64,000 bases of DNA from an uncultured Clostridia bacterium (GCA_944372095.1 CALVYG010000003.1:21347-85346); one strand, 5' to 3'; positions 5,801-30,165 are shown, numbered from the stretch's first letter. Notes: generated by a model not told the origin, from the letters alone. Translations and numbers: made by a program.

Positions 5801-5817
5801 TTTTAATTTCCTCAATT

Positions 5818-9600: not shown

Positions 9601-12600
9601 TTTTGCTCTCAAAGTTCGCGGCCATTACGCTAAGTGTATACTTTCCGGCATTTTTCCCCGTTGTAGTAAGCGTAAATTTTTTGCCGTCGTCGGAAAACGT
9701 ACCGCTCATTCCCTTGAAGGACACATTCTTGGCGTCACTGTTATAGAATCCGGAATAAACGAGTTCAAGCGTCTGCAATGTGCCGTCATACACATATTCC
9801 TTTTCTTCTATTTGAGGTTCGGACAAAGGCTTTTTAGCTATGCTCACCACCTGAGAAATACCGCTAAATTCATAGTTGTTGAGCGTTTCGTTGATGTTTA
9901 TCAAGCCTTCACCCACGGAAAGCGTATAAATGCCCGCGTCCGTTATGTCGAAACGGATATTGAAATTTCCGTACATGTCCTTTGAAATGCTTATCTCATC
10001 TGCACCCGAAGGATTATTGAAGCTCGTTTTATCGAAATGCTCATAATCGGTCCCCGCAATATTGGTAATGTTTAGGCTTACTCTTTGAGATTCGCCGTTA
10101 TATATAAGACCATCGGTACCGCTAAATGAGGCCGACAACCCTCTTTTCTTAATATTCCATTTGAATATTCGATCGTTATCCTCTGAATTAAGTTTATAGT
10201 TGTCGCTATTGACGCCGGTTATCGATGCCTCATATGAACCTGCGTTTCTTGCCTCACCGTCGCCACTGTAAGTAAAAACAATTTTGCCCGTATCCTCAGA
10301 CACTACTCCGGTAACCGTCGCCGAAACTTTGTGTTTCGCGGAGTCATAAGTTACAGAATCTTTATCGTCTCCGTCCAGCGTCCACGACTCAACGTCTAAC
10401 GTCTTCGGTACAATTTTCCACTCGTGCGACAACCTGGTACATTCGTCTATCGAATAGTTGGTGTTACCGATACCTGTTAGCGTTGTGGTGTATGTGCCTG
10501 CGTTTTTGCATACGCTATTGTCGCTTCCGGTGGTTTTGTACATCGGTTTAATCTCATCGTCCGACACAACACCGTCATATGTCATAAATACATAATGCGC
10601 TTTGCCTGTATACTCGACCTCTGAATTTGTTTCGCTGCCCTCTGTCTGCCAGCTTCCCCGCCAATTAAAGCTTGTCAGATATTTGGGGATTATTATAAAT
10701 TCGGCTTCTTCGGTAACGGTTTCATAGTTTTTTACGTCTTTGACAGACTTTTTCTTGTATTCAGCGGTAAGCTTATATTCCCCAGCGAATATAACACCAA
10801 CCCCTTGCGCGCCCATCGCCCCCTCGGAGAGTACCTCTCCGTCTTCTTTCTTGAAAACGAGATTGACAACAATATCATCTGGAATATCAAGCGCGTCTAT
10901 GCTCTGTCTTGAACCGTTATACTCCCGATTGTATTTTTCCGAAACGGAAGAATTTCCTTTTTCCAAAGCCTTCTTGCTTATTTCCACTTTAAGTAGGTCT
11001 GTCGCCTCCGAACGCTCTCCCGTGGGCGCAACGGCGATTACGGTAAGCGTGTACAACCCTGCCTCCGGAACATTTTGCACCTTTATTGACCCGGTCTCAG
11101 CCTCAAGCTCTCCATCGCGCTCCCACCTGTATAAAAAATTTACGGATGCATCGTGAGCCGGGATCGCCTTGAGCGTAAGAATTCGTTCTTCATCATATGT
11201 GAAACGTATCCCTTGGTCTCCCGAATCATAATTGTCGTCTGTGAATTCGGTAGCTATGCTCGCTTCGGGAAGGTTCAACTGCCACTTCGCAGTCAGCGAA
11301 AGATCCTCGCTGATGTCTTCCGTAGTCGCTATCTCCTCATCATCGTCAAACCACTTTACACCCGCATCGAAACCATATCTTATCGATTCAGCTTTGGGAA
11401 GTTCTATCGTTTCACCATCCGCCCAATACAGACGCTCGGCAGCAGACTCGGGAACATATGTTCCCCAATCGAGTTCTACGGTATATTCTTCAGCCCATTT
11501 TGCATAAAGTGAAGTAGACCGAGTGAATGTAAGTTTTTCGCTTTCCGAAAACTTGCACTCTCTAAGGAAATCGGAATCGTAATACCATCCGCGAAAAGCA
11601 TATCCGTCTTTTGCTCCGTCGGTCGCCACTTCGCGGTTATTCTTGATATACGCAAGAGTGTCTACGGAAATCGGCGTGCCTGTATTGTTTTCCCCGACGA
11701 GATCTTCGTACCCAAGAGTTACCTCAGTGCCTGTTTTTGCAATGATGCTCTCAATATAATAATCACTGTCGGTAAAGAAATCGATACAGAATTCACTTTC
11801 TTCGAGAATGGGACTGAAATTTTTGGCGTATTCCGGATTCTCCTTGCGGTATTTGTTGTATATATTCTTATCTACCTGAACGGAAACATCGGTATTCAGC
11901 CCTTCCAAAGAGTCTATTCGTCCCACGTTTTCTCCACTAAGAATGATCGTCTCTAGGGAAGCGGCGTCAAAACAATTTGCCGAAAACGCCGCCTTGCTGG
12001 AATACTTTATTGTTGTCAGCGCACTTCCGGAAACGGCACCCTTTCCTATGGACTCCACACTTTCAGGAAGTTCCAATGCCGTAATTTGATTGTTTACTAT
12101 GGCACCGCTTTCAATATAACGCAGTTCGCTGACTATCTTTTCCGTGCCGTCATCCGATTTTTTTTGTATGCCGAATGTAATGCTGTCTATCTTATTTATA
12201 GTGAATATCTCATCGTCCGTAAACGCCCCTGACGCTATGCCTATAACGGGTTTATTGTTATATTCGGACGGAATGTTCACTTGGGTGGAGGTGCCATTAT
12301 AAACGCCCGTTACGATATATGCACTGCCATCTTCGTTAAGTTCGTATTTGAGCGCACGCGTATCGGAAAAAATATCGTATACTTTGGGCGGTGCTTTATA
12401 CGCAAGCAACGCCAGAACTTGGCACGCAATTATGCACACGGCCATTATAGCATACGCCCTGATATATGCTTGTGAGGTGCTTTTTCGCTTCTCCGGACTT
12501 ATCCTGACCTCCTGCCTGACGAACGCATTAAGCGATTTGCGTTCGAGAACGGGAATTATTATGTATACTATCAACGAAACTATAAGCTGTATCACAGCTA

Positions 12601-12967
12601 TTATCATAAGATCCGTTCTCAAAAATCCCTCGTCCACATAACATAGCGCCATTGCAACAAGTATGGCAATTACCCATCCCGCTCCCGCTACATATGCCAG
12701 AATACTCATCACTCTCGCGTAGATTCCCGCAAATATGCGCAGCATAAAGTCCAATACACATACGCATATCTGTAATGCGTTAATTCCGATTATCACATAC
12801 ACCGCTATAAGAAAATAATCGGGACTACCTTTTCTCTGTATCAAAAACAGCGTCGTGAGCGATCCCGCTAAAATCACAATGAACCCAAGTAAAGTCAACA
12901 GATATCTCGCAAATACGATGTTCTTGTGTTCTTTAAGTATTATCGACGTTTTATTTGCTTCACTCAT
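6608..12967 (-). CDS. Giant (2119 aa) surface protein: 5-TM N-terminal anchor, BspA-type LRRs, Listeria-Bacteroides (Flg_new-like) repeats, and about 17 or more MBG/YDG-type repeats
   Basis: ATG 12967 with GGAGAAG upstream. Five N-terminal hydrophobic helices. YAFRGWYYDSDF...LYAKW matches the Flg_new pattern. Many ~80-aa units of the form 'Y(D/N)G..h...v......y....n.naG.Y......gn.NY.l' match the MBG-type pattern. Confidence 0.9.
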   Translation of the reverse strand: MSEANKTSIILKEHKNIVFARYLLTLLGFIVILAGSLTTLFLIQRKGSPDYFLIAVYVIIGINALQICVCVLDFMLRIFAGIYARVMSILAYVAGAGWVIAILVAMALCYVDEGFLRTDLMIIAVIQLIVSLIVYIIIPVLERKSLNAFVRQEVRISPEKRKSTSQAYIRAYAIMAVCIIACQVLALLAYKAPPKVYDIFSDTRALKYELNEDGSAYIVTGVYNGTSTQVNIPSEYNNKPVIGIASGAFTDDEIFTINKIDSITFGIQKKSDDGTEKIVSELRYIESGAIVNNQITALELPESVESIGKGAVSGSALTTIKYSSKAAFSANCFDAASLETIILSGENVGRIDSLEGLNTDVSVQVDKNIYNKYRKENPEYAKNFSPILEESEFCIDFFTDSDYYIESIIAKTGTEVTLGYEDLVGENNTGTPISVDTLAYIKNNREVATDGAKDGYAFRGWYYDSDFLRECKFSESEKLTFTRSTSLYAKWAEEYTVELDWGTYVPESAAERLYWADGETIELPKAESIRYGFDAGVKWFDDDEEIATTEDISEDLSLTAKWQLNLPEASIATEFTDDNYDSGDQGIRFTYDEERILTLKAIPAHDASVNFLYRWERDGELEAETGSIKVQNVPEAGLYTLTVIAVAPTGERSEATDLLKVEISKKALEKGNSSVSEKYNREYNGSRQSIDALDIPDDIVVNLVFKKEDGEVLSEGAMGAQGVGVIFAGEYKLTAEYKKKSVKDVKNYETVTEEAEFIIIPKYLTSFNWRGSWQTEGSETNSEVEYTGKAHYVFMTYDGVVSDDEIKPMYKTTGSDNSVCKNAGTYTTTLTGIGNTNYSIDECTRLSHEWKIVPKTLDVESWTLDGDDKDSVTYDSAKHKVSATVTGVVSEDTGKIVFTYSGDGEARNAGSYEASITGVNSDNYKLNSEDNDRIFKWNIKKRGLSASFSGTDGLIYNGESQRVSLNITNIAGTDYEHFDKTSFNNPSGADEISISKDMYGNFNIRFDITDAGIYTLSVGEGLININETLNNYEFSGISQVVSIAKKPLSEPQIEEKEYVYDGTLQTLELVYSGFYNSDAKNVSFKGMSGTFSDDGKKFTLTTTGKNAGKYTLSVMAANFESKNYSISDYDAEFTIEERQLVLNDYGYNSISLSKQTYFTYNGVAAKAYAVFGNVAAADASEKNIRIEFDNENGEIKNAGTYSLSLTLNLLQTQLGENISNYKFAGQTYSFTIEPKSVTPSWNFEAVYTGNADNEFVYTGDEIAAPTASFGNQICDGDTITIEYSGNEAKTNVGKYTTSISSLGNDNYKLDNNAEYEWKIIHKQLTLKWNAVQPYVYDGNNNGQSLTVEGILGDDEVGLKVVGTGSYSTEIRVKKEDNKRTIAPFSNAGSYSLKVDSVDSGNYSLPQDNLEISYEIQKAELTLSGWTWSNEKDFTGDNTKEGFESLVYRYSTYKLQNEISDDLGKSKDVILNYEENEKTNVGDYTAKITGLSGDDADNFKLPDEGLTKEWKIIPKVIDVKWTGGNQFTFNAETISVEASCFTGAESDKDGRTYDDGVSLKYSGNSYRNAGEYTANASVDDPSGNYTLNTDTTSHNWSISVCELGAPVWDKKTFTYNGTSLYPTAKFNIHGDVDVTVAYEYISSNAVDVGEKKIRVTGIGGEDAANYTLSDEAKTEYTYEITPLAVKIEWYYIKDGGNKASIDNLTDYDGKAATISAEVKNVIGTDVFSFTYEGVTNVTNAGSYSIKLTALGNDNYTTDGGENITLNFEIRKRILEFKWENSGDKEYVVSGYTLSATASNLADGDAVSSITYNGENSFTAVGTYTVSIANVTFSDSSDANNYELDNAIGRSETIKIVPRPVSIEWTNTEAEYDGKAHKPTVTVKGTDSVMIGTDEYTVTGPEAINAGSYEFELTLGDNSNYTLTDATGNTKCTLTIVPRPVSIEWTNTEAEYDGKAHKPTVTVKGTDSVMIGTDEYTVTGPEAINAGSYEFELTLGDNSNYTLTGATGNTKCTLNISRCSVAAVWWNDAESSSFTGNITDNGYEVAVEVGNLDLSAYTVLYKKEGEEQFLELVDGNALSEAGVYELKIELNDNYAHNYNLSNATVMLTLITSAESEVTDEE
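6933..7409 (-). repeat. Near-perfect 240-bp-period tandem duplication inside the 2119-aa gene (one 80-aa MBG-type unit duplicated)
   Basis: 6933-7169 and 7173-7409 are identical apart from one base (6960 c vs 7200 t), which gives TLTGATGN vs TLTDATGN in the protein. Both copies encode IVPRPVSIEWTNTEAEYDGKAHKPTVTVKGTDSVMIGTDEYTVTGPEAINAGSYEFELTLGDNSNYTL. Confidence 0.97.
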
Positions 12968-12997: not shown

Positions 12998-14743
12998 TTA
13001 CTTTTCCAAAGTTTCTTCAGTCATAATATCACGCGACTGCATCTTTTTGAGATTCCCGAGTGCCGTGACTCTGTATTGGGTAATCCTGTGTCCCTTCCCC
13101 TTTCTCTGCCGCAAAAAAACCGTGCCGTCTATTCTCGTGACCATATGTCGCTTGCCACTGTCTATTTCGTGACAGGTCGCACACACGAATCCGAGATCGG
13201 TATCCGTCCCCGCGTCGCCGCTACCGCGATAGTACTCTCCGCCGCATATACTGCATTTGACGCATTTGTCTGCGTTGGCTATCAGCAGGTCGTCTCCGGA
13301 TAAACTGTATTTTGCTGCAACGTTTCTTTTGAACTTGGCAAGTATTGTTTTGGCTTCGGCGGTAGTCAATTCTTCTTCGCTCTTCCCGAGTGTGTCGTGA
13401 CAATATTTTCCGCGGAAACCCTCAAATTCCTCATAACCTGCTATCTTTTCGTACGCATAATTGACTATTGCCATCTGCTTCAGCGGAATGACGCTCCTGC
13501 AAACACCTTCCGAATCCACTCTGCCCATGTCGTATACCCATTCGATGGCTTCGCGACAACGGCAATAGTTAATCCCCCCCTCCAAAGAAGCGTTCGTCAA
13601 AGTTCTGATAAACTCTCTGCCGGGCGCAAGTTTTACGTTGCGGTAAGGATCCATCAGCACCCCTACTTTGTCGGCTAACACTTTTTTATAATTGTAATGC
13701 CACTCTCCGCATACCGGACAACATTCAAGACACTCAGCACACCCGGTAAGATGCACAAGACGCCCCTTATCACTCATAGTTTCGTACAATGCATCCTTAT
13801 TGATATGTATTTTGTTGACGGCTCCGCCAATGGATACTAACGCGCTGTCACATGTATTACATTCAAACGCGCTTCTGCTGAGATTGTCGCTGCCACGGCT
13901 CATGCCGGCAAAATATTGAGTCCGGAAAATACCCTCCGACTTGCCGTTGCCTACCCTCACAAGAATGTCCTGTGCGCGTAGGCGAATTTCGAAAATCGAT
14001 TTGATGGATATTCTCTGTATATCCGTTTCCGATTCGTGATATGCGTTAAACACGGCTTTTCTGATTAGATCGGAATTCAGTTTGAGGTTTTCTCGCGCTT
14101 CACCCGTAAGCAGGCTTATCGTACCTCCTTCCAATCCGTCCACTATCTCGTTCGGAACAACTTTTACAGCCCCGTCCGTCAACATAAAACTGAATGTCTC
14201 AGAAGTCGCAGATACTCCCGTATCCTTTATAAGATAGCATTTGAATACGCTGACTCGCTTCATATTGTCGGGCGTAGACTCGAAACTTATATCCTCTTCA
14301 ATGGGAAGATTTTCTCCGGCAACAGGACGATTGTACTTGTATCCTATGATGTCATCAATATTATCTACAATTTTCTTTCTGTCTATCTGTATAGCCTCGT
14401 CGTCGGACCGAAGCAGATATGTTACATGCTCATAAACTTTGTTTATTAGCGTTGCAGAAGACCTTGGGTCGATTACGGCATACTGTTTGTTTATGCTTTC
14501 GTAAAACAAGGGACTAATCCCGGATCCTATCCCAATATCCACTCCGCTTTCGTCCGATTCATAGTTATCACCAGACGAACCGGGATCGTACGGTTCGTTA
14601 ATGACTATATAGTTGTCGCCGTCAATACAAATGCTCTCAGCGTCCCCGTATCTTTTTTTGAACTCGACAACTTCGTTTTTCAGCGTGGACTCAAAATCAC
14701 CGCCAAATGTAAATTTTAATTGTCTTGCTATATCTGTCAGCAC
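12998..14743 (-). CDS. Cys-rich (multi zinc-ribbon-like) hypothetical protein
   Basis: The track ORF starts at TTG 14749, only 2 nt after GGAGGA. GTG 14743 has better spacing. CxxC-type clusters: CNTCDS, CAECLECCPVCGEWH, CRCRE, CVKCSICGGEYY...CATCHE. Confidence 0.7.
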   Translation of the reverse strand: MLTDIARQLKFTFGGDFESTLKNEVVEFKKRYGDAESICIDGDNYIVINEPYDPGSSGDNYESDESGVDIGIGSGISPLFYESINKQYAVIDPRSSATLINKVYEHVTYLLRSDDEAIQIDRKKIVDNIDDIIGYKYNRPVAGENLPIEEDISFESTPDNMKRVSVFKCYLIKDTGVSATSETFSFMLTDGAVKVVPNEIVDGLEGGTISLLTGEARENLKLNSDLIRKAVFNAYHESETDIQRISIKSIFEIRLRAQDILVRVGNGKSEGIFRTQYFAGMSRGSDNLSRSAFECNTCDSALVSIGGAVNKIHINKDALYETMSDKGRLVHLTGCAECLECCPVCGEWHYNYKKVLADKVGVLMDPYRNVKLAPGREFIRTLTNASLEGGINYCRCREAIEWVYDMGRVDSEGVCRSVIPLKQMAIVNYAYEKIAGYEEFEGFRGKYCHDTLGKSEEELTTAEAKTILAKFKRNVAAKYSLSGDDLLIANADKCVKCSICGGEYYRGSGDAGTDTDLGFVCATCHEIDSGKRHMVTRIDGTVFLRQRKGKGHRITQYRVTALGNLKKMQSRDIMTEETLEK

Positions 14744-14767
14744 AACCAATTCCTCCGTTGAGATACT

Positions 14768-17368
14768 TTATTCATTTATACTTCCGAATCCGACGTCATC
14801 GGCAGACATCATATTTTCCGTTACGTTGAAGAAATCCCCGAACGCCTTGATGAAAACGTCATACATTGCACACCTGATTCCCTCGATTTTGTCGTATTCT
14901 ACGCGAAACATCTCCTTTGCTGCAACCGCTTCCTCGCTTTTTATCGATGCAATAATCGATTTTGCTGCGCGTTCGCTTTTGTTTATCGTCGCTTTTGTCT
15001 CCAACATACTCTTTTCAAAAACCTCATCCGCACTCGCAGAGTGAATACTCCTGCCCGCAGATCGGTTTTCAACAAGTTTTCGATATTCCTCGACGTATTC
15101 ATTTATTGCAGAATAAAAATTGTTAACACCCCTGAAAAACTGCCTTGGATTATTGACTTTGAGCTTTTCATACTTCGGACAATCCGCACAGTTAGCCGGC
15201 GGCGGACACATCCCGCGCAAGTATTTTATGCACGCTCCGAAAAATACATATCGGCTATCCCCGGAACGCGCGCCTACAGGTATAACTTTCCTGAATCCCG
15301 ATTTCCCTATCGGCGGCGGATCTATATTCTCCACAGAATCGCCACCCTCCTCTATGGTAACACTGCTCCCAATCACCATCCCGAAGCATTTTCCGATATG
15401 TTTCATCTGCGAAAGCCTGAATTTTGCTTCGGGAGAGAAAAAGACATTTTGCGTGTTGATTCCGGATAACTCGTTCGTGAAAGCAGCGGCAACATCTTCC
15501 TCCGACAGAGAGTTCTCCACTGCCATGCGCGTCGCTATATACACCGCTTCGAGTTTTTTGACGCGCGAAGCATATTCCCCGCTCATATTCTCGCTTTTGT
15601 CCGTAACCTCGCTTAAGTCACAGCTTTTATTGATATACTTTTCGGAAATATTGCCACTAAGATCGTCTCGCATCGCCATAAGTATTATTCTCGGAGCGAA
15701 ACGCATACTCTTGGCTTTATCCATAAGCCCCGCAAAAAATCTGTCCGCAGGGTGCAGATCCGCAAAATATATCGCGCGTACAGCGTAATCGTAAGGCGTT
15801 GCCGCAAAATGAGGTATATCTGTTACGGCTACTACCGCGCCGTCGGATAATGAATCGCCCATAATCTCGTCCACACTGTCCATATATCGATAGCCGAATT
15901 TCTCCGAAAGTTTTCTGATCGACGTCACGGCCTCATCCATCGCCTCACGTGAAACGACTATAATAAACGGTTTTCTTCCCCCTTTCTCCGCAGAAATCGC
16001 TTTGAACACCGCGAGATATTTATTAAACCTGCAATCGTTTTGCTCTACGGACGTAAATACGGTTTCGTTATCCCTTTTCGGAACGGAGCCATGACGCTTA
16101 TCGAGAATGTATCCGAAAAAAGAGTCGAGCCTCTTCACCCTCACAACTTCAAAGTCCGTTGCAGATAGCGGATACGCTATACCGCCGAACGATTCCACAA
16201 GCTCCGCTATCTCTTCCGCTTTATGCGCCTCAACGGCGCGCACTTCCGTTTTATCGGATAAAAGCACATTATACACTAAACGCGCAAAATTTCTTCCTCC
16301 GTCCGTAATAAAGTCAAGCATATTGTCGAACCAGTAATCCTCCGACAATGCCGTACCGCGCATTTTGACATATGCTCTTACCGTTTGAAGAAACAACTCT
16401 CGCTGCGTCATAAACCCGAACATATCCGAAATGCGCTTAGCCAAAGCACCGACGTCGCTGAAGCGTGAACCCGCAAAACTCATTACGTAATCCGCAATGC
16501 CTTCGTTTTCGAGTGCGGTATTTAAAGTGTATTGCAGAACATCGGAATTCTGCGCTGTGAGAATATCCGCTATTTTCTTTGCTAACTTGTTTAATCCCAA
16601 ATTGTCCGTCAGTTTCTTTGCCACATATAAATTAACGCCCGCACCCGCCGTAAGACAATCGCTGTATACCACTACTCTACCCGCAGAATCGGCTATTTTT
16701 GCCAGTCGCTTATAGGACCTAATCCGCGGTGTATAGTATACTTCACTGTTAAAAAACATGACGTCATACTCAAACGGATCTATTGTGTCGACGGAGTGCT
16801 TTCCGGTATTTTTGCATTTTTTGAGTTCAAATAATCCATATACTTCGTCCATATACACGAAATCGTATTCGGCGTCCGCCATCAAATCGGCTAACGCATA
16901 TTGAAGCCTTCTATCTGAATATCTCCTTATACTTCCGTCGAGGCTGACGTCCGCAAAAAATTCCTTGTTCAAAATCGGCGTCCCCGAATAATCCTCCAAC
17001 GCGATTATAAGATACGGATAATTCTTTTTTATAATCTTAGCAATAAAATTTTTGTCAATGCCCGCACAGTCGTTTATGTTTACTATACCCGCGCCTTCAA
17101 ATAAACTGTCCATCTTTTGTACGGTATCCACGACAAAAATTTTTCCGAAACAATGTTCCAAACACGTAGCAAGCTCCGCTGCGGTAACAGTCTCGGGCGT
17201 AATGGCAAGAAACGACTCCGTCTTGTTTTCGGTAAAATATGATATTAGCGCCGAAACCACCCTGTGCTTTGCAGAATCGGCAATAAACAATCTCTCGGAG
17301 TCGGCCAGCTTTTCAATGTATTTGCCGACTTTTTCCCCCTCTGCCGCCATACCGTTTACCATCATCAT
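14768..17368 (-). CDS. Large (866 aa) hypothetical partner of the SNF2 helicase; C-terminal Cys-knuckle plus helical module paralogous to the SNF2 C-terminus
   Basis: ATGATGATG follows GGAGGA and overlaps the SNF2 stop (ATGA, 17365-17368); the exact start (17368, 17365 or 17362) is ambiguous. I saw no GxxGxGK(T/S). CPPPANCADCPKYEK...NNFYSAINEY resembles the SNF2 tail DCSDARDCNKCPNYSQ...NSYSEFTKAA. Confidence 0.7.
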   Translation of the reverse strand: MMMVNGMAAEGEKVGKYIEKLADSERLFIADSAKHRVVSALISYFTENKTESFLAITPETVTAAELATCLEHCFGKIFVVDTVQKMDSLFEGAGIVNINDCAGIDKNFIAKIIKKNYPYLIIALEDYSGTPILNKEFFADVSLDGSIRRYSDRRLQYALADLMADAEYDFVYMDEVYGLFELKKCKNTGKHSVDTIDPFEYDVMFFNSEVYYTPRIRSYKRLAKIADSAGRVVVYSDCLTAGAGVNLYVAKKLTDNLGLNKLAKKIADILTAQNSDVLQYTLNTALENEGIADYVMSFAGSRFSDVGALAKRISDMFGFMTQRELFLQTVRAYVKMRGTALSEDYWFDNMLDFITDGGRNFARLVYNVLLSDKTEVRAVEAHKAEEIAELVESFGGIAYPLSATDFEVVRVKRLDSFFGYILDKRHGSVPKRDNETVFTSVEQNDCRFNKYLAVFKAISAEKGGRKPFIIVVSREAMDEAVTSIRKLSEKFGYRYMDSVDEIMGDSLSDGAVVAVTDIPHFAATPYDYAVRAIYFADLHPADRFFAGLMDKAKSMRFAPRIILMAMRDDLSGNISEKYINKSCDLSEVTDKSENMSGEYASRVKKLEAVYIATRMAVENSLSEEDVAAAFTNELSGINTQNVFFSPEAKFRLSQMKHIGKCFGMVIGSSVTIEEGGDSVENIDPPPIGKSGFRKVIPVGARSGDSRYVFFGACIKYLRGMCPPPANCADCPKYEKLKVNNPRQFFRGVNNFYSAINEYVEEYRKLVENRSAGRSIHSASADEVFEKSMLETKATINKSERAAKSIIASIKSEEAVAAKEMFRVEYDKIEGIRCAMYDVFIKAFGDFFNVTENMMSADDVGFGSINE

Positions 17369-20300
17369 TCCTCCGTAATGATTTCGTCGTCGAATTCGAC
17401 ATTCTCGTCCATATTGCTCATAAATTCGGCAATGGAGAGCGTTTTGATAAACTTTTCAAACATTGCCGCGCTCTCAAGCACGCTGTCGCACTGTTTATAA
17501 AACTGTTTAAGCACTCTGTCGATATAACGTTTCACCACGTCGTCCCAATAGAGTTTCTTGATTGGATTCATTATAGCGTCAAACTCTTTTATTGTCATGA
17601 CGAAAGGCTTCATGGGATCGGATTTAAGATTGGTTTTCAGCTTGCTCTTAAGTTCTTCAAATTCCTTCCTGCGGGAGCGAAAAAACGCATCTTGTCTGCT
17701 CATTTTGTTATCCTGCCCCTGTACGAGCGTTCCCCTTGCGCTGAGCGTTGAGAGCATGTTTTCGTAAAACTTTATACTTTCTCCTGCAAATTTTTCGGCG
17801 GCTTTGGTAAATTCAGAATAACTGTTTACGACGCCTTCTCCGCCTTCGGATTTACATTGCGAATAATTCGGGCATTTATTGCAATCGCGTGCGTCACTGC
17901 AATCGAGAAATACGTTACGCCTGCTGTTAAAACGAACAACTTTATCCTTGTCGGAATCATCGCGCCTGCCTTTATATATGGAATTGACGAACATTTTCTC
18001 ATATACTTTTCTCATCGCGTTGATATACACAAAATCTGCCTTGGTAAAATCTTTGTCCGTTCCGAATTCCGCGCTGAACTCATCCGCTGCATGGTCAATA
18101 TCCGTCCTGTCAACCTCCTCGGTGCATAATCTGTAGAGAATTAAATAGAATTTTTCAAGCTTATTGACATTGCCTTCAAACGAAATATCTTCTTTTGCCT
18201 CGGAAGTCTGTACGTTCTCGCGGCTTTCCTCAGGTACGGAAACTATACCCGTCGTCTCCCCCATCCACTGCGTGAACATAAGCATTTCGTTGGCGAAAAA
18301 GTTGATTACAAATCCACTCATATCGTTTAACGGAACGAATGATATTATATTGATGGACTGCTCCTGGCTTGCAGGTCTGATACGGTCAATACGCCCTATC
18401 CTCTGCTCCATTTTGAGAGGGTCGTAATTGATGTCGAAATTGATTATTGTATTGGCTTTCTGTAAATCGACGCCTTTTTCATAACGCTTAGGGTCTATTA
18501 TAACAAGAAGATTGCCTCTGTATCGGTTTATATCGTCGGTCTGCTCGGAAACTCTCCAGCTCTGCTTTACACTGCTTATACCGTAACGCTCGAAAGCCTT
18601 ATCGAATTTTTTCTTCGTAGATTCATTTATCGCACCGAGTTTTTCCGTCAACGGACTGCATCCCTGATAAGCAAACCACTTCGTGATAATATCGCGGTAT
18701 CTCCCGTCAGCAAACAACAGCACCATGTTGTTTATATTGCCCAAAGAAGCATCGGTGCCTTCCATGAGCTTATTTACCAACGCGAGTTTATACTCTATCA
18801 TATTTTCGTCCCCTATCTGCACCGATTCGTAATAGCTGTGCTGCGGCAAATGATGTTCGTCTCCTCCACTCATGGAGTCGTTTATGTATGCGAAAAGTTG
18901 CTTTGCGGCAGCAAAACGCTTTTGCTTTGAAGCTTCCGTACCTTTCAATGTTCCGTAGTTTGGCAATGATTCGATATCCACCTCGCCGCTATGCAATGCA
19001 GATATATCCTTATTCCTCGTCGTAAGATAGGAATCGAAAAACCTGTCTATACGTTGCAGATATATTACGTTTCCGTTGCGCTTTGGCCATATGGGCAGAT
19101 TGCGATATCTTTCCATCTTTCCGCTCTTGAGCATATCCGTAACGCTCGCATCGGGAAAGTTCCCGAGATTGTAAGTCTGATGACGCGTGTGGCGGATACC
19201 GTATTTTCTGTATGTGTTATACCATCTGCGCGGACCATCTTTGAGAACAAGCATATCCCTTATCCTCTTTATTGGCTCATTATTTTCTCCAATGAAATCC
19301 TCTTCAAATCTCAGCCTTATAGGGTTATCTAGAAGTGCGCGGAACACTACTCGGGTGCGCATATCCGACGTAGGTTCTATACCCTTCATTAGTTCCAAGA
19401 TTCCGTCGTTTAACAACAACGAATTCACGTCATCCAGGCGTTGGTCTATCGCTCCGTCCTCATGCTTGGTTTCAAGTTTATATGCAGAAAGAAGGTTCAT
19501 TACCACCTCGTTTATCGACATATACGAGAAATGACTCAGAAGATAATTTTTAATGTTTTCGGCATCAGAAGCGTTCTTTTCGATATATTGCGTGTGCATG
19601 TACGGGAAAGCATATTTGTTCCCCGCGCTGTTTTTGGGTGCTTCGCGCAAATATTCGGAATGATGATCCGTAAAAAACTCGGCGGCAATTTCGGTAATGC
19701 ATTTATAAACGCTTTGCCTTATGTCGTCGATCGATTTCGGATCTGCCGTATCAAGATCTCGCGAGAGAACTTCGTAAGTTTCCGCATCCTTGTTGCACGC
19801 AAGTAAAGTCAGGAGATAAAAATCTACCATATCCGACTTTATCGGAGTCGCCGTGAGAAATATTTTACGTTTGGCTTTGTCCGCCAAGTCCTTGAGTTTT
19901 TTATATAGACTTGTTTTTTCTATGAAATAATAATCATCGAATAGTTCGTATCTGTTAAATTGCTTCGCGGGATATTTTTCTACGAATTCGGCTTGCCTTA
20001 AATGGAAATCGTCCGTGTTTACCTTCGCTCGTACGTCGATATAGTCATGGACTTCATCCACAATCACGGTTTGATATGCTGCGTCAATAAAAAAATCGAT
20101 GACTTTGTACGATTCGTAATAAGGAATTATTCCTTCGCCATCCTGAGTGGAATATTCGTGTCTATAATTTTTTATCTCCGGCGCAAGTTCATGATTCAAA
20201 AACGGCGTCGTGGCTCCGGTTTGGGAATCCGTTGAAGATATCGGCACCACGAGAATGGGATATTTCTTGCTTAATCCACCCGAAATACGGGCGCTTTCTT

Positions 20301-21258
20301 CGGGATGCATAGTAAGGAATTTCCCGAGAAGCGCGTAAAGCGACGCCAGCTCCGCCTCCAACAAAGCAATGTATTTTCTGTTAAAATTCTCTACTCTCCT
20401 GAATACGGATTCTAGCTGGCGCTCACCATTAGGCACGGACCTCATATAATCCGCTACGGCTTTACTTGAACCGAATTTTAGCGTGAGTTCGGCGTTAAAC
20501 TTCTCACTTGCCAAAACTATCTTCTCTGCCGTCGCGTCATACCTCAATCCGTCGATATCCAAACCCACATCACTGAAAGAATTTTTTAACGCGTCTATGA
20601 CGCAATATATATCCTTTTTGAAATAATTTATAAGTACTTCCGCAATATCTCTGCCCGAAGAATCATCTTGACTGTGCGTTATCGTAAGAACAGGAGCGGC
20701 TTCGTTCTCGGCTAAACGCGCTCCTTTCGTCGTTATTCCGAAACCGATTTCGCTTCTGAACGCCTCGAAAACGCTGATGTAAAAATCGCTAATACATGAA
20801 AGGCTCTTTACTTCGGGAAACGTCACGCCGTTTTGGGTATATTTCTTTATCCCGAATTTCTCTTCCAACTCGTATTCCCACTTGCGAGACATTATTTCAT
20901 TAGGCACGATTATGAGCAGTGACCTTAATTCGTTACGGCTTGCGAGTTCCGATATAATCATGCCCGCTTCTATCGTCTTTCCCATACCCACCTGATCGGA
21001 TAATATACCGCTCTTGTTCAAGTTGAATACAAAATCGTATACCGCTTCTTCCTGATAGGAATAGTAACTGTGATCGCTTTTCTGCCCGAACCAGTTAAAA
21101 CGGTTATAATAATCCTCTTTCAAACGCAATTCCTGCCTGCTTTCGACTTTGCTTACTTCTTTGAGCAGTTCAGTAATTCTATGAATTTGTTCTTCGCTCG
21201 AATCCTCTACCGCCGCCTTTTCGTGTTTCGGCATTTCAACATCGTATTCGCTTAACAT
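17365..21258 (-). CDS. SNF2/RAD54-family (superfamily 2) helicase-like ATPase, 1297 aa, with large insertions and a Cys-rich C-terminal module
   Basis: ATG 21258 with GGAGAAAA upstream. Motif I LSDQVGMGKTIEAG; Ia LLIIVPNEI; II VIVDEVHDY; III IFLTATPIKSDMVDFY; V-VI GVDLQKANTIINFDINYDPLKMEQRIGRIDRI. Confidence 0.9.
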   Translation of the reverse strand: MLSEYDVEMPKHEKAAVEDSSEEQIHRITELLKEVSKVESRQELRLKEDYYNRFNWFGQKSDHSYYSYQEEAVYDFVFNLNKSGILSDQVGMGKTIEAGMIISELASRNELRSLLIIVPNEIMSRKWEYELEEKFGIKKYTQNGVTFPEVKSLSCISDFYISVFEAFRSEIGFGITTKGARLAENEAAPVLTITHSQDDSSGRDIAEVLINYFKKDIYCVIDALKNSFSDVGLDIDGLRYDATAEKIVLASEKFNAELTLKFGSSKAVADYMRSVPNGERQLESVFRRVENFNRKYIALLEAELASLYALLGKFLTMHPEESARISGGLSKKYPILVVPISSTDSQTGATTPFLNHELAPEIKNYRHEYSTQDGEGIIPYYESYKVIDFFIDAAYQTVIVDEVHDYIDVRAKVNTDDFHLRQAEFVEKYPAKQFNRYELFDDYYFIEKTSLYKKLKDLADKAKRKIFLTATPIKSDMVDFYLLTLLACNKDAETYEVLSRDLDTADPKSIDDIRQSVYKCITEIAAEFFTDHHSEYLREAPKNSAGNKYAFPYMHTQYIEKNASDAENIKNYLLSHFSYMSINEVVMNLLSAYKLETKHEDGAIDQRLDDVNSLLLNDGILELMKGIEPTSDMRTRVVFRALLDNPIRLRFEEDFIGENNEPIKRIRDMLVLKDGPRRWYNTYRKYGIRHTRHQTYNLGNFPDASVTDMLKSGKMERYRNLPIWPKRNGNVIYLQRIDRFFDSYLTTRNKDISALHSGEVDIESLPNYGTLKGTEASKQKRFAAAKQLFAYINDSMSGGDEHHLPQHSYYESVQIGDENMIEYKLALVNKLMEGTDASLGNINNMVLLFADGRYRDIITKWFAYQGCSPLTEKLGAINESTKKKFDKAFERYGISSVKQSWRVSEQTDDINRYRGNLLVIIDPKRYEKGVDLQKANTIINFDINYDPLKMEQRIGRIDRIRPASQEQSINIISFVPLNDMSGFVINFFANEMLMFTQWMGETTGIVSVPEESRENVQTSEAKEDISFEGNVNKLEKFYLILYRLCTEEVDRTDIDHAADEFSAEFGTDKDFTKADFVYINAMRKVYEKMFVNSIYKGRRDDSDKDKVVRFNSRRNVFLDCSDARDCNKCPNYSQCKSEGGEGVVNSYSEFTKAAEKFAGESIKFYENMLSTLSARGTLVQGQDNKMSRQDAFFRSRRKEFEELKSKLKTNLKSDPMKPFVMTIKEFDAIMNPIKKLYWDDVVKRYIDRVLKQFYKQCDSVLESAAMFEKFIKTLSIAEFMSNMDENVEFDDEIITEE

Positions 21259-21280: not shown

Positions 21281-22429
21281 TTATCGTGTTTTATTTTTTA
21301 TGAAGCCCGCACGCAAACTGCCTACATACAATTCGCCATTAAAGAGACTCACCTTATTGCTGGTCATTTCAAGGACGAAACTGCGTTCAGTAACCTCGCG
21401 CATCCTGTCTTTGTAGCGCCTTATAATTTCCGCTCTCGCATCGGTGATCTTGACGTAACGCAACTGTCTTTCGTTATCCTCCAATATAAGGTTAAAGTGT
21501 GCGTTTTCGTTAAACAGTTCGCCGTCCGACTGAGACTTAATCTCGGAAACGGGATAGGTATAGCACACCTTTTCCGAACCCGTATGCGATTTATAATATA
21601 CGTACAATACGTTATTAAAAGACTGTATCGTCGTTATATCGAAACCAACCTTAAAGCCAAATCGACACACACTCCCGGGATTCCCTAAACGCAATTTACA
21701 AACCCGGTTTTCGGATACCCAAAGTATATCGCCGCCGTCTGAAACTATAAGCGGTTCTCTGACAAACTCTCCGTTTTCGATATTAAATTCACCATTTCCT
21801 ATCATAACCGTTTCTATGCGGCGTTTGTCGGGTACAAAACGATAATACCCGAGTTTCTCGTCATGAATAACAAATATATTTGAACCTATACATGATACGA
21901 AACTGCTTGTCGCATACGTAGACGGGAGTTCGACGGCGGCCATGGGTTTAAGCTTTATCTTCCCCGCAATGTCTATTAAATAAACGGTAAGGTTGCACTT
22001 GTCTTTCTCCGAGGCGATTGCCACAAGATAGTACCCGACGCCTGTCTCCTGCGGAAGACATATGATACCCCATGCCCTAACGGTTTCTCCGGGATACAAC
22101 ACGCGATTGGCGTCATAGATAATATATCCGTTCGCATCCAACGCGAACACGGCACCGTTTAACCAAAGTTCGGGCAGACCTTCTTCGGACATGCGACGAC
22201 TGTAAACGTACCTGACGTCTCCGGGTCCTATGACGCAGTTATTCCCTATGTCGCCGTTTGTAAGCAGCCGGAACTTGCAATCAACAAGGGTATTTTTCCG
22301 ATCCACATATTGCTTCCAATCGTTAAACTCACCCACTATCTCCTGTCCGTATGCAGAAGAACGCACGCTAAGTTTCGACGTATAGAACAGCTTTTCTTTT
22401 TTAGTTGCTTTATAAAAGCATTTCAGCAT
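21281..22429 (-). CDS. Hypothetical beta-rich protein (382 aa), possibly propeller-like
   Basis: ATG 22429 with GGAGAGAGGA upstream. Gaps of 14 and 22 bp to its neighbours. I recognised no catalytic motif. Confidence 0.6.
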   Translation of the reverse strand: MLKCFYKATKKEKLFYTSKLSVRSSAYGQEIVGEFNDWKQYVDRKNTLVDCKFRLLTNGDIGNNCVIGPGDVRYVYSRRMSEEGLPELWLNGAVFALDANGYIIYDANRVLYPGETVRAWGIICLPQETGVGYYLVAIASEKDKCNLTVYLIDIAGKIKLKPMAAVELPSTYATSSFVSCIGSNIFVIHDEKLGYYRFVPDKRRIETVMIGNGEFNIENGEFVREPLIVSDGGDILWVSENRVCKLRLGNPGSVCRFGFKVGFDITTIQSFNNVLYVYYKSHTGSEKVCYTYPVSEIKSQSDGELFNENAHFNLILEDNERQLRYVKITDARAEIIRRYKDRMREVTERSFVLEMTSNKVSLFNGELYVGSLRAGFIKNKTR

Positions 22430-25014: not shown

Positions 25015-25599
25015 TTATTTATTTATTTCCTCACGGAGGCTTGCAAGTTTTTTCTCTATCTCGTCGTTGCTCATACCTGACTGACTTTTACCATATATTT
25101 TATTGTCAATCTCGGTATCGTCCACGTTGCTGATTTTATCCGCAAATACGCCGACCTCGTTTTGGTTAGATTCTAAAACTTCGATAACTTCCTCTGTTTG
25201 CGCGGTAACCTTTTCCATTGCTTCCTGAATTTCGTTCACAAACTTGCTCATATCCTCTGTGGTGTTTGCAGCAATACTTTTACCTATATCTCCAAGCGCA
25301 TGCACAAAATCTGTCGTCATTGCAGACATTTCTTTCATCTGCGATACAATTCTGAGATTGACCAGCATCGCAAACGTACGCTTCTTTTCCCCTATCGTCA
25401 ATTTGAGCGCTTTTTTAGCCAACTCAATCTGTTCCGGCAACGCTTCGCGCATGGCTACTTTGGCGGCATTGATATAAACTTGTTCCTGATCCTCGAGCTT
25501 TTTGATGCGCCTTTCAAGCTGGTTCATAGCCTTATTGACTGCCATTCTGCGCTCGCGCTCTTTTTCGGCCTTACTCTTAAACAAATTAGGTTTTTTCAT
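25015..25599 (-). CDS. Snf7/ESCRT-III-like (PspA/Snf7 superfamily) coiled-coil protein, 194 aa, with MIM1-like C-terminal helix
   Basis: AAGGAG SD. The helical pattern LERRIKKLEDQEQVYINAAKVAMRE..ELAKKALKLTIGEKKRTFAMLVNLRIVSQMKEMSAMTTDFVHALGDIGKSI..MSKFVNEIQEAMEKV aligns by eye with the CHMP/Snf7 core. The tail NDEIEKKLASLR fits (D/E)xxLxxRLxxL(K/R). Confidence 0.7.
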   Translation of the reverse strand: MKKPNLFKSKAEKERERRMAVNKAMNQLERRIKKLEDQEQVYINAAKVAMREALPEQIELAKKALKLTIGEKKRTFAMLVNLRIVSQMKEMSAMTTDFVHALGDIGKSIAANTTEDMSKFVNEIQEAMEKVTAQTEEVIEVLESNQNEVGVFADKISNVDDTEIDNKIYGKSQSGMSNDEIEKKLASLREEINK

Positions 25600-25655
25600 G
25601 TTTGCTCCTTAATAAATATTCAATATATACTTGTTGTTTTCGTTCGAACGAGCCT

Positions 25656-26825: not shown

Positions 26826-26843
26826 TACGATTCCCTCCGAAAA

Positions 26844-27458: not shown

Positions 27459-27476
27459 ATTTCTCCTAAAATAATA

Positions 27477-28127: not shown

Positions 28128-28172
28128 ATTGTCTCCTTGTTTGATTCTCCGTTTAGTCTTTGCATAACCTGA

Positions 28173-29075: not shown

Positions 29076-29096
29076 TTTTATTTCTCCTATATTCTA

Positions 29097-30071: not shown

Positions 30072-30165
30072 AATAAATACCTCCCGAATTGATTGTACAT
30101 GCAAACAAGGGCGGCACTAAAGAAAAAACAAAACCCCCTCATCCGTGTCTTGCAAAACTTTTTTT

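What the first reader, a model, noticed from the sequence alone, without database searches (positions are those of the whole stretch)
12998..21258. SNF2 helicase with two translationally coupled Cys-rich partners sharing a paralogous C-terminal module
A 1297-aa SNF2-family ATPase has all core motifs but large insertions. Its stop overlaps the start of an 866-aa protein (ATGA), which is followed 18 bp later by a 583-aa protein with four or more CxxC clusters. The helicase tail (nt ~17368-17900: VFLDCSDARDCNKCPNYSQC...VNSYSEFTKAAEKF) and the tail of the 866-aa protein (nt ~14771-15230: VFFGACIKYLRGMCPPPANCADCPKYEK...VNNFYSAINEYVEEY) share a Cys-knuckle plus helical module. That suggests paralogy or a common docking surface. 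SNF2 ATPases are core parts of several anti-phage systems, for example DISARM and Zorya. Here the trio sits directly downstream of the MIT-RuvB-nuclease and the ESCRT-like genes. It could be a separate defence cassette or the DNA-sensing arm of a larger system.
Basis: partly seen in the sequence, partly recalled or inferred. Interest (0 to 1): 0.6.

Follow-up and report, generated by a model that had tools for sequence, protein, structure and literature searches.

The report
SNF2 ATPase, dead paralogue, zinc partner
An active SNF2 motor protein, a catalytically dead copy of itself and a novel multi-zinc protein form the cytoplasmic part of a previously undescribed 14-gene operon in uncultured gut and rumen Clostridia; the SNF2 and zinc-protein genes are always followed by a giant membrane-anchored surface protein gene, and the operon may be a new envelope-linked system acting on foreign DNA.

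Summary
The 1297-aa protein is an intact RapA-like SNF2 ATPase. The 866-aa protein shares more than a tail with it. It is a near-full-length paralogue (hhalign E 9e-40 over 740 columns; AF2 model best matches RapA) that has lost the P-loop, the DExH glutamate, and motifs III and VI. Tail-only profile comparison gives E 7e-14. The 583-aa protein belongs to a family with 12 invariant cysteines (about three Zn sites) and has no sequence or fold relative.

The genes co-occur in every locus inspected, about 15 in all. However, the invariant core is SNF2 + zinc protein + a collinear orthologous giant protein (2000-3100 aa, about 5 TM helices, then a surface ectodomain). The dead paralogue and the Cys4 knuckle occur only in one subclade.

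Upstream modules vary between a Psp/SPFH-like set with a CbbX/EccA-type AAA+ and a RuvB-nuclease, a ZnR-TIR-TPR protein, and lipoproteins. In the window, one perfect sigma-70 promoter precedes all 14 genes.

No PADLOC system, phage, plasmid or paper matches. Best reading (about 0.45): the trio is the DNA-translocase arm of an envelope-coupled conflict system, Zorya-like in logic only. Function is untested.

The parts
17365..21258 (-). Active RapA-like SNF2 ATPase (1297 aa), with large insertions in lobe 1 and between the lobes
   Evidence: Pfam SNF2-rel_dom, Helicase_C and ResIII score above cut-off. Motifs I, II, III and VI are invariant in 31 homologues. RapA is the only PDB sequence hit of the family profile. 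About 100 full-length homologues exist in Clostridia MAGs.
20974..20982 (-). Walker A G93-K94-T95 of the SNF2
   Evidence: Invariant in alignment A2.
20047..20058 (-). Motif II D401-E402-V403-H404 of the SNF2
   Evidence: D401, E402 and H404 are invariant in A2.
17491..17949 (-). SNF2 C-terminal tail module (aa about 1104-1256): Cys4 knuckle (nt 17854-17901) followed by long helices
   Evidence: Tail-only hhalign against the 866-family tail gives E 7e-14. The Cys4 knuckle is present in 19/19 class A SNF2s and absent in 12/12 class B and C SNF2s.
14768..17368 (-). Catalytically degenerate paralogue of the SNF2 (866 aa by first ATG; probable start 17362, 864 aa)
   Evidence: hhalign of A3 against A2 gives probability 100%, E 9e-40, 740 columns. 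The N-terminal segment aligns to the motif Ia region (E 2e-5). The P-loop is gone and motif II reads D[DNE]VY, with Glu in 4/41 members. The AF2 model has pLDDT 83. Its best PDB matches are RapA (E 1e-9) and then other SNF2/SF2 enzymes. No Pfam or PADLOC hit in any member. Only 53 representative clusters exist among 1.8 billion proteins.
14798..15259 (-). Tail module of the 866-aa protein (aa about 704-857), with the Cys4 knuckle C713/C721/C727/C730 (nt 15179-15232)
   Evidence: These four Cys and N739 are among the few invariant columns of the family. Tail hhalign.
12998..14749 (-). Multi-zinc-ribbon protein (583 aa; probable start GTG 14743, 581 aa), invariant partner of the SNF2
   Evidence: 71 homologues. 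12 Cys are invariant across all three locus classes. The AF2 model has pLDDT 83, with no Foldseek hit at E<1e-3 in PDB or BFVD. No Pfam, PADLOC or PHROG hit. It lies directly after the SNF2, or after the SNF2 paralogue, in every locus inspected.
6608..12967 (-). Giant protein (2119 aa): about 5 N-terminal TM helices, a basic cytoplasmic loop, then an LRR_5/Flg_new/MBG ectodomain. Third invariant core component.
   Evidence: TM and Pfam results. It is a collinear orthologue in all loci; for example, against the L005 giant it is 26% identical over 2209 aa (E 3e-125), and against L006 E is 4e-49. tblastn.
21281..22429 (-). 382-aa Cys-containing protein of unknown function, found in most class A loci
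   Evidence: Orthologues are present in L001, L004 and L087 and absent in L094 and in classes B and C.
22444..24978 (-). RuvB-like AAA+ with an N-terminal helical extension and a C-terminal nuclease-like domain (844 aa). This is the variable 'effector' position.
   Evidence: RuvB_N and RuvB_C in Pfam. Full-length RuvB match in PDB, E 4e-58. Tn7_TnsA-like_N hits (weak in L004, faint in L094) in the orthologues. PHROG endonuclease hit at 660-725. Replaced by a ZnR-TIR-TPR protein in L088, L005 and L089.
25015..30104 (-). Upstream membrane-associated module: SPFH/Band_7_1 + Zn ribbon (335 aa), a 300-aa protein, three small helical Snf7/PspA-like proteins (216, 204, 194 aa) and a CbbX/EccA-type AAA+ (389 aa)
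   Evidence: Pfam. CbbX E 1e-55 and EccA1 E 3e-44. The same module is present in L004, L094 and, in reduced form, L088. It resembles the B. subtilis pspA-ydj operon type described in PMC11237479.
30166..30194 (-). Consensus sigma-70 promoter (12/12 match, TG-extended -10) upstream of the first gene
   Evidence: All intergenic gaps from 30104 down to 1634 are 56 nt or less, so the genes most likely form one transcription unit of about 28.5 kb.
1634..6582 (-). Distal genes of the operon: a 254-aa protein and a 1393-aa BspA-type LRR protein with a cytoplasmic N-terminus and 3 TM helices
   Evidence: Pfam LRR_5 E 3e-193. TM helices. A 254-like gene follows the giant gene in L001 and L091.

Best explanation
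The trio is the cytoplasmic motor arm of a larger conserved operon, not a cassette of its own.

Shown:
- (1) The 1297-aa protein is an intact RapA-like SNF2 ATPase.
- (2) The 866-aa protein is its duplicated, catalytically dead paralogue. It keeps the two-lobe SF2 fold and the C-terminal Cys4-knuckle/helical tail.
- (3) The 583-aa protein is a novel protein with about three zinc sites. It follows the SNF2 gene in every relative, directly or after the paralogue.
- (4) The invariant core across all relatives is SNF2 + zinc protein + an orthologous giant protein, membrane-anchored by about 5 TM helices and carrying a surface ectodomain. The genes are translationally coupled or tightly spaced.
- (5) The genes upstream are swapped between lineages: a RuvB-nuclease with a Psp/SPFH/AAA+ module, a ZnR-TIR-TPR protein, or lipoproteins.

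Inferred:
- The SNF2 and its dead paralogue form a heterodimer in which only one subunit hydrolyses ATP. The paralogue would act as a regulatory or DNA-holding subunit, paired through the shared tail.
- The zinc protein bridges the motor to DNA and/or to the short cytoplasmic loops of the giant membrane protein.
- The assembly works at the membrane on incoming foreign DNA. The giant ectodomain would report an envelope or adsorption event. The SNF2 complex would load on and translocate along the entering DNA. The lineage-specific effector (RuvB-nuclease here, TIR elsewhere) would execute the response. The Psp/SPFH/AAA+ module would scaffold the assembly or protect the membrane.

This resembles Zorya in logic only (envelope sensor plus SNF2 effector). 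It is not a member of that system.
For: Paralogy:
- hhalign E 9e-40 over 740 columns.
- Tail-only comparison E 7e-14.
- N-terminal segment E 2e-5.
- BLAST within L004, E 1.5e-7.
- The Foldseek top hits of the 866-aa model are RapA and other SNF2 enzymes.

Loss of catalysis: P-loop and motif II statistics, and no helicase Pfam hit in 41 members.

Coupling: the ATGA/TGATG junction in the window. One-nucleotide overlaps at SNF2/paralogue in L004 and L087, an 8-nt overlap at SNF2/zinc protein in L005, L088 and L089, and a 1-nt overlap in L095.

Co-occurrence: the same gene order appears in about 15 loci. A further 17 SNF2/zinc-protein cluster pairs have the same longest-contig length.

Giant protein: collinear orthologues down to 28% SNF2 identity, with a shared TM domain.

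The Cys4 knuckle occurs only where the paralogue exists.

Conflict-system flavour:
- A true TIR_2 domain (50 bits, cut-off 28) fused to a DUF6273 binding domain sits directly upstream of the SNF2 in L088.
- A weaker TIR sits at the same position in L005 and L089.
- A RuvB plus TnsA-like nuclease sits there in class A.
- The modules are shuffled around a fixed core.
- The SNF2 is most similar to DrmD, DpdE and BrxH models among defence proteins.
Against: - No experimental or ecological evidence for defence was obtained.
- The loci are not in recognisable defence islands. They are flanked by nitrogen metabolism, TrkAH and histidine kinase genes.
- There are no hits in phage, plasmid or IMG/VR collections, and presence/absence among close strains could not be assessed.
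- Class C loci show only lipoproteins upstream and no obvious effector.
- The giant protein evolves at about the same rate as its cytoplasmic partners, not hypervariably.
- Its cytoplasmic surface is small (N-terminal about 18 aa plus one loop of about 25 aa), which gives little to dock on.
- Heterodimerisation and the contact between the zinc protein and the giant protein are not modelled.
- The PADLOC SNF2 hits cover only the helicase motifs.
Confidence: 0.45

Rival explanations
1. Dedicated expression helper for a giant gene. The RapA-like SNF2, with its paralogue and a zinc-ribbon RNAP-binding factor, would keep RNA polymerase processive or recycled on the 6-9 kb giant gene that always follows it. 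The DNA motor would then serve transcription, not immunity.
For: - RapA is the only solved structure hit by the family profile and the best fold match of the paralogue.
- The SNF2 and zinc protein genes are always immediately upstream of, and apparently co-transcribed with, the giant gene.
- Class C loci contain only surface proteins besides the SNF2 and the zinc protein.
Against: - All prokaryotic SNF2s, including the defence proteins DrmD, DpdE and BrxH, are RapA-like, and the PADLOC DrmD scores are stronger.
- The RapA matches cover only helicase motifs.
- This reading does not explain the TIR, RuvB-nuclease, AAA+ and SPFH genes in the same operon.
- The helper would be encoded on the very transcript it is meant to help.
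Confidence: 0.17
2. Envelope-spanning DNA transaction machine that is not immunity. Examples are DNA export or uptake, or vesicle- or contact-mediated DNA transfer. SNF2 and RuvB would be DNA pumps, the Snf7/SPFH/AAA+ module would remodel membrane, and the giant and LRR proteins would act as targeting adhesins.
For: Two DNA motors plus a nuclease are co-operonic with weak Snf7-like hits, an SPFH protein and TM-anchored adhesin-type proteins. The polar residues conserved inside the TM domain (NxxQ, RxD) could line a conduit.
Against: - TIR variants do not fit a transfer role.
- The Snf7 assignments are below the Pfam cut-off, and the AAA+ is CbbX/EccA-type, not Vps4.
- There are no relaxase, FtsK-like, ComEC-like or capsid genes.
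- The membrane module is missing in several loci.
Confidence: 0.1
3. Stand-alone three-gene defence cassette (SNF2 + 866 + 583), independent of its neighbours.
For: The three genes are tightly coupled and co-occur in class A loci. SNF2 proteins occur in several defence systems.
Against: - The cassette is never seen without the giant gene downstream.
- The 866-aa gene is missing in class B and C loci, while the SNF2, zinc protein and giant protein persist.
- There is no internal promoter or terminator evidence separating it from its neighbours.
Confidence: 0.06
4. Conserved synteny without functional linkage. The SNF2 pair and zinc protein would act in general DNA repair or recombination and merely sit next to surface-protein genes by descent.
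For: All loci come from one group of uncultured Clostridia, so shared ancestry could preserve gene order. The flanking genes are housekeeping.
Against: Gene order is kept down to 28% SNF2 identity while the upstream genes are replaced three times. Stops and starts overlap, the genes share one promoter, and the three core proteins diverge at parallel rates.
Confidence: 0.07

Closest known systems
RapA/HepA-type bacterial SNF2 ATPases (E. coli RapA; PDB 6BOG, 8SO8)
   Same: They are the closest solved relatives of both the active SNF2 (profile E 2e-13) and the dead paralogue's model (Foldseek E 1e-9). The two-lobe SNF2 core is shared.
   Different: The sequence match is limited to the helicase motifs. 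There is no evidence for RapA's RNAP-binding N-terminal domains. This family has large extra insertions, a Cys4/helical tail, a dead paralogue, and obligate zinc-protein and giant-membrane-protein neighbours.
Zorya (ZorAB envelope-anchored motor + ZorC + SNF2-nuclease ZorD)
   Same: The logic is the same: an envelope-embedded component encoded with a cytoplasmic SNF2 ATPase and a nuclease activity. The weak PADLOC ZorD hit of the SNF2 (E 1.5e-7) covers the SNF2's N-terminal, motif I region only.
   Different: There are no MotA/MotB-like ZorAB proteins; the single ZorA hit (E 0.0019) falls on a 194-aa coiled-coil protein. The nuclease is not fused to the SNF2, and there is no ZorC. The membrane component is a 2000-3100-aa surface protein.
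DISARM (DrmA, DrmB, DrmC with DrmD SNF2 and a methyltransferase) and Dpd (DpdE, DpdF, DpdJ helicases)
   Same: The best PADLOC models for the SNF2 are DrmD (E 4e-27) and DpdE (E 1e-23). Both are multi-helicase systems that include a Zn-binding partner (DrmB).
   Different: There are no DrmA, DrmB, DrmC, methyltransferase or DpdA-C homologues in the operon. The zinc protein has no DrmB or DUF1998 hit. Only 4 of 49 zinc-family members give a marginal DpdF hit (E 8e-4).
B. subtilis pspA-ydjGHI type Psp/Band-7/Zn-ribbon operons (PMC11237479)
   Same: The first genes of the operon encode Band_7_1 + C-terminal Zn ribbon and small PspA/Snf7-like helical proteins.
   Different: Those operons are not linked to an SNF2, a RuvB-nuclease, TIR or giant surface proteins. 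The Snf7 hits here are below cut-off.

Membership tests
SNF2/Swi2 ATPases (the 1297-aa protein) | SF2 motifs I, Ia, II (DExH), III, V and VI, and SNF2-type Pfam models above the gathering score | tested here: met
   SNF2-rel_dom scores 37.5 bits (cut-off 24.9) and Helicase_C 36.2 bits (cut-off 23.5). GMGKT, DEVH, TATP and QRIGRIDR are invariant.
SNF2/Swi2 ATPases (the 866-aa protein) | Two-lobe RecA-like SF2 fold homologous to SNF2 | tested here: met
   hhalign E 9e-40 against the partner SNF2 family. Foldseek top hits are RapA, ISW1, Rad54 and INO80.
SNF2/Swi2 ATPases (the 866-aa protein) | Catalytic motifs: Walker A GxGKT, DExH glutamate, motif VI arginines | tested here: not met
   The P-loop is replaced by D-x-[SA]-K. 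Motif II reads D[DNE]VY, with Glu in 4/41 members. TATP becomes LSD. There is no Pfam helicase hit in 41 members. It is therefore a pseudo-ATPase.
DISARM | DrmA helicase + DrmB (DUF1998) + DrmC, with DrmD or DrmE and a methyltransferase | tested here: not met
   PADLOC on 10 operon proteins hits only the SNF2 itself, through generic motifs. There is no DrmB, DrmC or methyltransferase, and Pfam finds none.
Zorya | ZorA/ZorB MotAB-like stator pair, plus ZorC/ZorD or ZorE | tested here: not met
   The only hits are a marginal ZorA hit (E 0.0019) on a 194-aa coiled-coil protein and a ZorD hit (E 1.5e-7) on the SNF2's N-terminal, motif I region. There is no MotB/OmpA-like protein.
Dpd (7-deazaguanine) restriction module | DpdA, DpdB and DpdC modification genes with DpdD-K | tested here: not met
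   No TGT-like, ParB-like or DUF328 hits in the operon. The DpdE hits are generic. DpdF hits are marginal and found in 4/49 zinc-family members.
RapA (RNAP-associated SNF2) | N-terminal RNAP-binding domains and association with RNA polymerase | tested here: inconclusive
   The profile matches RapA in two stretches, the best-scoring one at the motif I region (profile positions 90-144). Binding to RNA polymerase cannot be tested with these tools.
ESCRT-III/Vps4 system (neighbouring genes) | Snf7-family subunits plus a Vps4-type AAA+ with an MIT domain | tested here: not met
   The Snf7 hits score 18.3 and 17.4 bits, below the 27.3 cut-off. The AAA+ is CbbX/EccA1-type. MIT is not detected by Pfam, and the N-terminal similarity between the two ATPases has E 0.19.
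TIR-domain effectors (locus variants L088, L005, L089) | TIR_2 Pfam model above the gathering score | tested here: met
   L088 620-aa protein: TIR_2 scores 50.1 bits (cut-off 28), and DUF6273 has E 2e-27. L005 and L089 are sub-threshold at 25 bits. There is no TIR protein in the window itself.

The most novel reading that the evidence does not exclude
The operon is a previously unrecognised class of envelope-coupled system. A giant surface protein with a conserved 5-TM base would signal across the membrane to an asymmetric SNF2/pseudo-SNF2 motor through a novel multi-zinc adaptor. Effectors (RuvB-nuclease or TIR) and a Psp/SPFH/AAA+ membrane module would be interchangeable. This would be either a new anti-phage or anti-MGE immune strategy of Gram-positive anaerobes, or a new route of DNA traffic at the cell surface.
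Probability: 0.3. Interest if true: 0.85.

Novelty: new variant of a known kind. Interest (0 to 1): 0.62.

Why it matters
- If the inferred mechanism holds, it adds a new architecture to SNF2-based systems: an active/dead paralogue pair, comparable to the pseudo-enzyme partnerships known elsewhere in biology.
- It defines two protein families with no known relatives: the 866-aa pseudo-helicase, with only about 50 clusters in 1.8 billion representatives, and a zinc protein of about 580 aa with no fold match.
- It links a DNA motor genetically to a giant membrane-anchored surface protein, for which I found no precedent in PADLOC or in the searched literature.
- It would give an entry point to how Gram-positive gut anaerobes couple events at the cell surface to DNA-directed responses.
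- It would also give a clean natural example of homo-oligomer to hetero-oligomer evolution: the duplication and the Cys4 knuckle appear together in one subclade.

Tried and rejected
1. The genome-contig scan with the SNF2 alignment picked generic motif I peptides and returned mostly unrelated SNF2 genes. Only L007 and the L005 contig were true relatives, so no species-level presence/absence map was obtained.
2. The metagenome-contig scan with the zinc-protein alignment gave only 4 short loci. The IMG/VR scan gave none. tblastn against plasmids and phages gave none.
3. Foldseek of the zinc-protein model against PDB and BFVD returned only insignificant MHC-like hits and zinc-ribbon fragments of about 45 residues. 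The profile search of PDB sequences found nothing below E 0.046.
4. I tested whether the zinc protein is a third degenerate helicase, a lead from the marginal DpdF hits. This is rejected: hhalign against the SNF2 family gives probability 0.1%, and the model is dominated by antiparallel sheets.
5. The MIT domains claimed for the neighbouring ATPases were not detected by Pfam, and the pairwise N-terminal similarity has E 0.19.
6. Vps4 identity of the AAA+ is rejected; it is CbbX/EccA-type.
7. PHROG and PADLOC scans of the unknown proteins gave nothing.
8. Strain-level absence of the operon next to the same symporter gene could not be assessed, because both contigs found end too early.
9. Five literature searches found no description of this cluster.
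10. The other giant ORFs in the window (2084 aa and 1012 aa) are unrelated to the operon proteins.

Full report
**What is in the window.**

Fourteen minus-strand ORFs run from 30104 down to 1634 with gaps of 56 nt or less. They lie behind a 12/12 sigma-70 consensus promoter with a TG-extended -10 at 30194-30166. No convincing terminator falls between them.

The rest of the window encodes ordinary chromosomal functions:
- glutamine synthetases and GOGAT;
- AmtB-PII;
- asparagine synthase;
- CTP synthase.

Named relatives are all uncultured Clostridia/Oscillospiraceae MAGs. The finding covers genes 9-11 of this operon.

**Check of the observation.**

The 1297-aa ORF (17365-21258) is a bona fide SNF2 ATPase. 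SNF2-rel_dom, Helicase_C and ResIII all score above the Pfam cut-offs. GMGKT, DEVH, TATP and QRIGRIDR are invariant in an alignment of 31 homologues that go down to 25% identity. About 300 aa separate motifs I and II, and about 400 aa separate motif III from motif V.

The ATGA overlap with the next gene is present. The GGAGG is best placed for the third of three tandem ATGs (17362), which lies 2 nt after the stop. That start matches the 864-aa product called in public assemblies.

The 583-aa ORF follows after 18 nt. Its likelier start is GTG 14743, giving 581 aa as in P0123. Its CxxC pairs are real and conserved:
- C297/C300/C337/C340, C344/C347/C396/C398 and C499/C502/C523/C526 are invariant in 49 homologues.
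- Except for C523, they are also invariant in 11 proteins spanning all three locus classes.

**The shared tail is the visible end of a whole-protein paralogy.**

Within the window, BLASTP gives the tail only E 0.77. The best segment instead aligns SNF2 329-489 with 866-aa residues 113-256 around motif II (E 1e-5).

An exhaustive phmmer search of 1.84 billion representatives found just 53 relatives of the 866-aa protein, all about 850-930 aa. A 41-sequence alignment of them (A3) was compared with the SNF2 family alignment (A2):
- Full length: hhalign probability 100%, E 9e-40, 740 aligned columns. 866-family positions 97-880 align with SNF2 positions 343-1266.
- Tails alone: probability 98%, E 7e-14.
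- N-terminus: aligns to the motif Ia region, E 2e-5.

In locus L004, the orthologous pair's tails match by plain BLAST (E 1.5e-7). As a control, the zinc-protein family against the SNF2 family gives probability 0.1%.

The paralogue has lost the catalytic motifs:
- The glycine-rich P-loop is gone, although a Lys is kept in 37/41 members.
- Motif II reads D[DNE]VY, with the catalytic Glu present in only 4/41.
- TATP has become LSD.
- Motif VI is unrecognisable.

No member hits any Pfam helicase model. An AF2 model (pLDDT 83, pTM 0.83) nevertheless finds E. coli RapA first (E 1e-9), and then ISW1, Rad54, INO80, MDA5 and Hef. The 866-aa protein is therefore a pseudo-SNF2. It lacks the SNF2's N-terminal 60 aa and its lobe 1 insertion.

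**The zinc protein.**

Seventy-one homologues were found. None has a Pfam, PADLOC or PHROG hit, except a marginal DpdF hit in 4/49 members. The AF2 model is confident (pLDDT 83) but has no Foldseek match at E<1e-3 in PDB or BFVD. As a whole chain it is a new fold combination built around about three zinc sites.

**Conservation and the real unit.**

Neighbourhoods of diverse SNF2 homologues fall into three classes.

| Class | SNF2 identity to the window | Loci | Gene order |
|---|---|---|---|
| A | 40-74% | L001, L003, L004, L087, L093, L094 | SPFH-ZnR / 300 / Snf7-like / AAA+ / Snf7-like / RuvB-nuclease / (382) / SNF2 / pseudo-SNF2 / zinc protein / giant protein. L087 lacks the upstream module. 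|
| B | about 28-32% | L005, L088, L089 | ZnR-TIR-TPR / SNF2 / zinc protein / giant protein. In L088 this is preceded by ZnR / 304 / Snf7-like / the same AAA+ (46-54% identical). |
| C | about 28% | L006, L007, L095 | Large lipoproteins / SNF2 / zinc protein / giant protein |

In classes B and C the zinc-protein gene overlaps the SNF2 stop by 8 nt or 1 nt, or follows it after a 12-nt gap (L006).

The giant proteins are collinear orthologues from residue 1. The window protein is 26% identical to the L005 giant over 2209 aa (E 3e-125) and matches the L006 giant at E 4e-49. They share an N-terminal domain of about 5 TM helices with conserved intramembrane polar residues and one basic cytoplasmic loop. 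After it come LRR_5, Flg_new and MBG-type extracellular repeats, with no C-terminal anchor.

The invariant core is therefore SNF2 + zinc protein + giant membrane protein. The pseudo-SNF2 is a class A innovation. The Cys4 knuckle in the SNF2 tail is also present only in class A (19/19 against 0/12). This dates the duplication to that lineage and ties the knuckle to the presence of the paralogue.

A further 17 zinc-protein clusters share an exact longest-contig length with an SNF2 cluster. This is indirect support for linkage.

**Neighbours.**

- The AAA+ is CbbX/EccA1-type (E 1e-55 and 3e-44), not Vps4.
- The 844-aa protein contains a complete RuvB (E 4e-58). It also has a nuclease-like C-terminus, supported by a weak or faint TnsA_N hit in the orthologues and a PHROG endonuclease hit.
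- The Snf7 hits recur in diverged orthologues but are all below the Pfam cut-off.
- MIT domains were not confirmed.
- The first genes resemble the Band-7-ZnR/PspA operon type of Firmicutes described in PMC11237479.
- DUF6273, which is fused to the TIR protein of L088, appears in papers on DGR-diversified phage receptor-binding proteins. I did not read these papers. Taking it as a ligand-binding domain rests on their titles and abstracts and on my own knowledge.

**Interpretation.**

The following are firmly shown:
- an active RapA-like SNF2;
- its dead paralogue, with a shared Cys4/helical tail;
- a novel zinc protein that is the SNF2's universal, translationally coupled partner;
- obligatory linkage to an orthologous giant membrane-anchored surface protein;
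- module swapping upstream.

The following are inferred:
- an SNF2/pseudo-SNF2 heterodimer, evolved from a homo-oligomer;
- the zinc protein acting as an adaptor to DNA and/or to the giant protein's small cytoplasmic face;
- action on foreign DNA at the membrane, with lineage-specific effectors (RuvB-nuclease or TIR).

The swap between TIR and nuclease at the same position, the fixed core with shuffled accessories, and the similarity to DrmD, DpdE and BrxH favour a conflict system. I put this at about 0.45.

Several points count against it:
- There is no defence-island or mobile-element context.
- Class C loci have no visible effector.
- The giant protein is not hypervariable.

The main rival is a RapA-like helper for transcription of the giant gene (about 0.17). 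Others are:
- a non-immune DNA-traffic machine (about 0.1);
- a stand-alone trio (about 0.06);
- synteny without functional linkage (about 0.07).

**Comparison with known systems.**

This is not DISARM, Zorya, Dpd or BREX, because their defining partners are absent. It works like Zorya only in the abstract sense of an envelope component plus an SNF2. No paper in the searched library describes the cluster.

**Verdict.**

- The finding is a new variant of SNF2-based multi-gene systems. It contains two families without known relatives.
- Function is untested. Interest is 0.62.

Noticed in passing
window 30166-30194 (-): A perfect 12/12 sigma-70 promoter with a TG-extended -10 lies about 60 nt upstream of the first operon gene. 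A terminator-like hairpin at 30653-30627 precedes it. This suggests a single strong promoter for a 14-gene transcript of about 28.5 kb.
   Followed up: partly
L088 8125-9987; L005 1027-3816; L089 7175-9973: In distant relatives, the gene directly upstream of the SNF2 encodes a Zn-ribbon-TIR-TPR protein. In L088 it carries a C-terminal DUF6273, a domain reported in DGR-diversified phage receptor-binding proteins. This protein occupies the position that the RuvB-nuclease gene holds in the window.
   Followed up: partly
L006 3018-9982; L095 1-9988; L007 75-1481: A third locus type has very large predicted lipoproteins (signal peptide plus Cys; 627, about 1700 and more than 1200 aa, one with a weak phage Ig_J hit) upstream of the SNF2. 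No TIR or nuclease gene is visible there.
   Followed up: partly
It has an N-terminal helical extension of about 100 aa and is 46-54% identical across otherwise very different loci.
   Followed up: yes
window 6608-7180 (-), aa 1-190 of the giant protein: The 5-TM base of the giant protein carries polar residues conserved across all classes: N..Q in the second helix, and R-x-D at the start of the fourth. It also has one basic cytoplasmic loop (aa 141-165). This could be a signalling or conducting element.
   Followed up: no
window 1634-6582 (-): The operon ends with a 254-aa Cys-containing protein and a 1393-aa BspA-type LRR protein that has a cytoplasmic N-terminus of about 250 aa and 3 TM helices. 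A 254-like gene also follows the giant gene in L001 and L091. L089 has a 239-aa protein and an LRR_5 protein upstream; that LRR protein is homologous to the window's, but the 239-aa protein showed no similarity to the 254-aa protein.
   Followed up: partly
window 50292-56546 (-) and 57505-60543 (-): Two further very large ORFs (2084 aa, with N- and C-terminal hydrophobic segments; 1012 aa, with an N-terminal TM) have no Pfam hit and no similarity to the operon proteins.
   Followed up: partly
window 32303-33469 (-): A 388-aa protein with collagen-like GPT triplet repeats lies between the Na+ symporter and the asparagine synthase genes. One strain contig (L096) has a 173-aa gene at this position, so the site varies between strains.
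   Followed up: no
window 21281-22429 (-): The 382-aa protein between the RuvB-nuclease and the SNF2 has no detectable domains. It is conserved at 24-61% identity in most class A loci but is missing in L094, so it is an optional component.
   Followed up: partly
alignment A1 (zinc-protein family): Four of 49 members give marginal PADLOC DpdF hits (best E 8e-4), and the SNF2 hits DpdE. A remote DpdE/DpdF-like pairing cannot be excluded, but the fold and profile data do not support a helicase fold for the zinc protein.
   Followed up: partly
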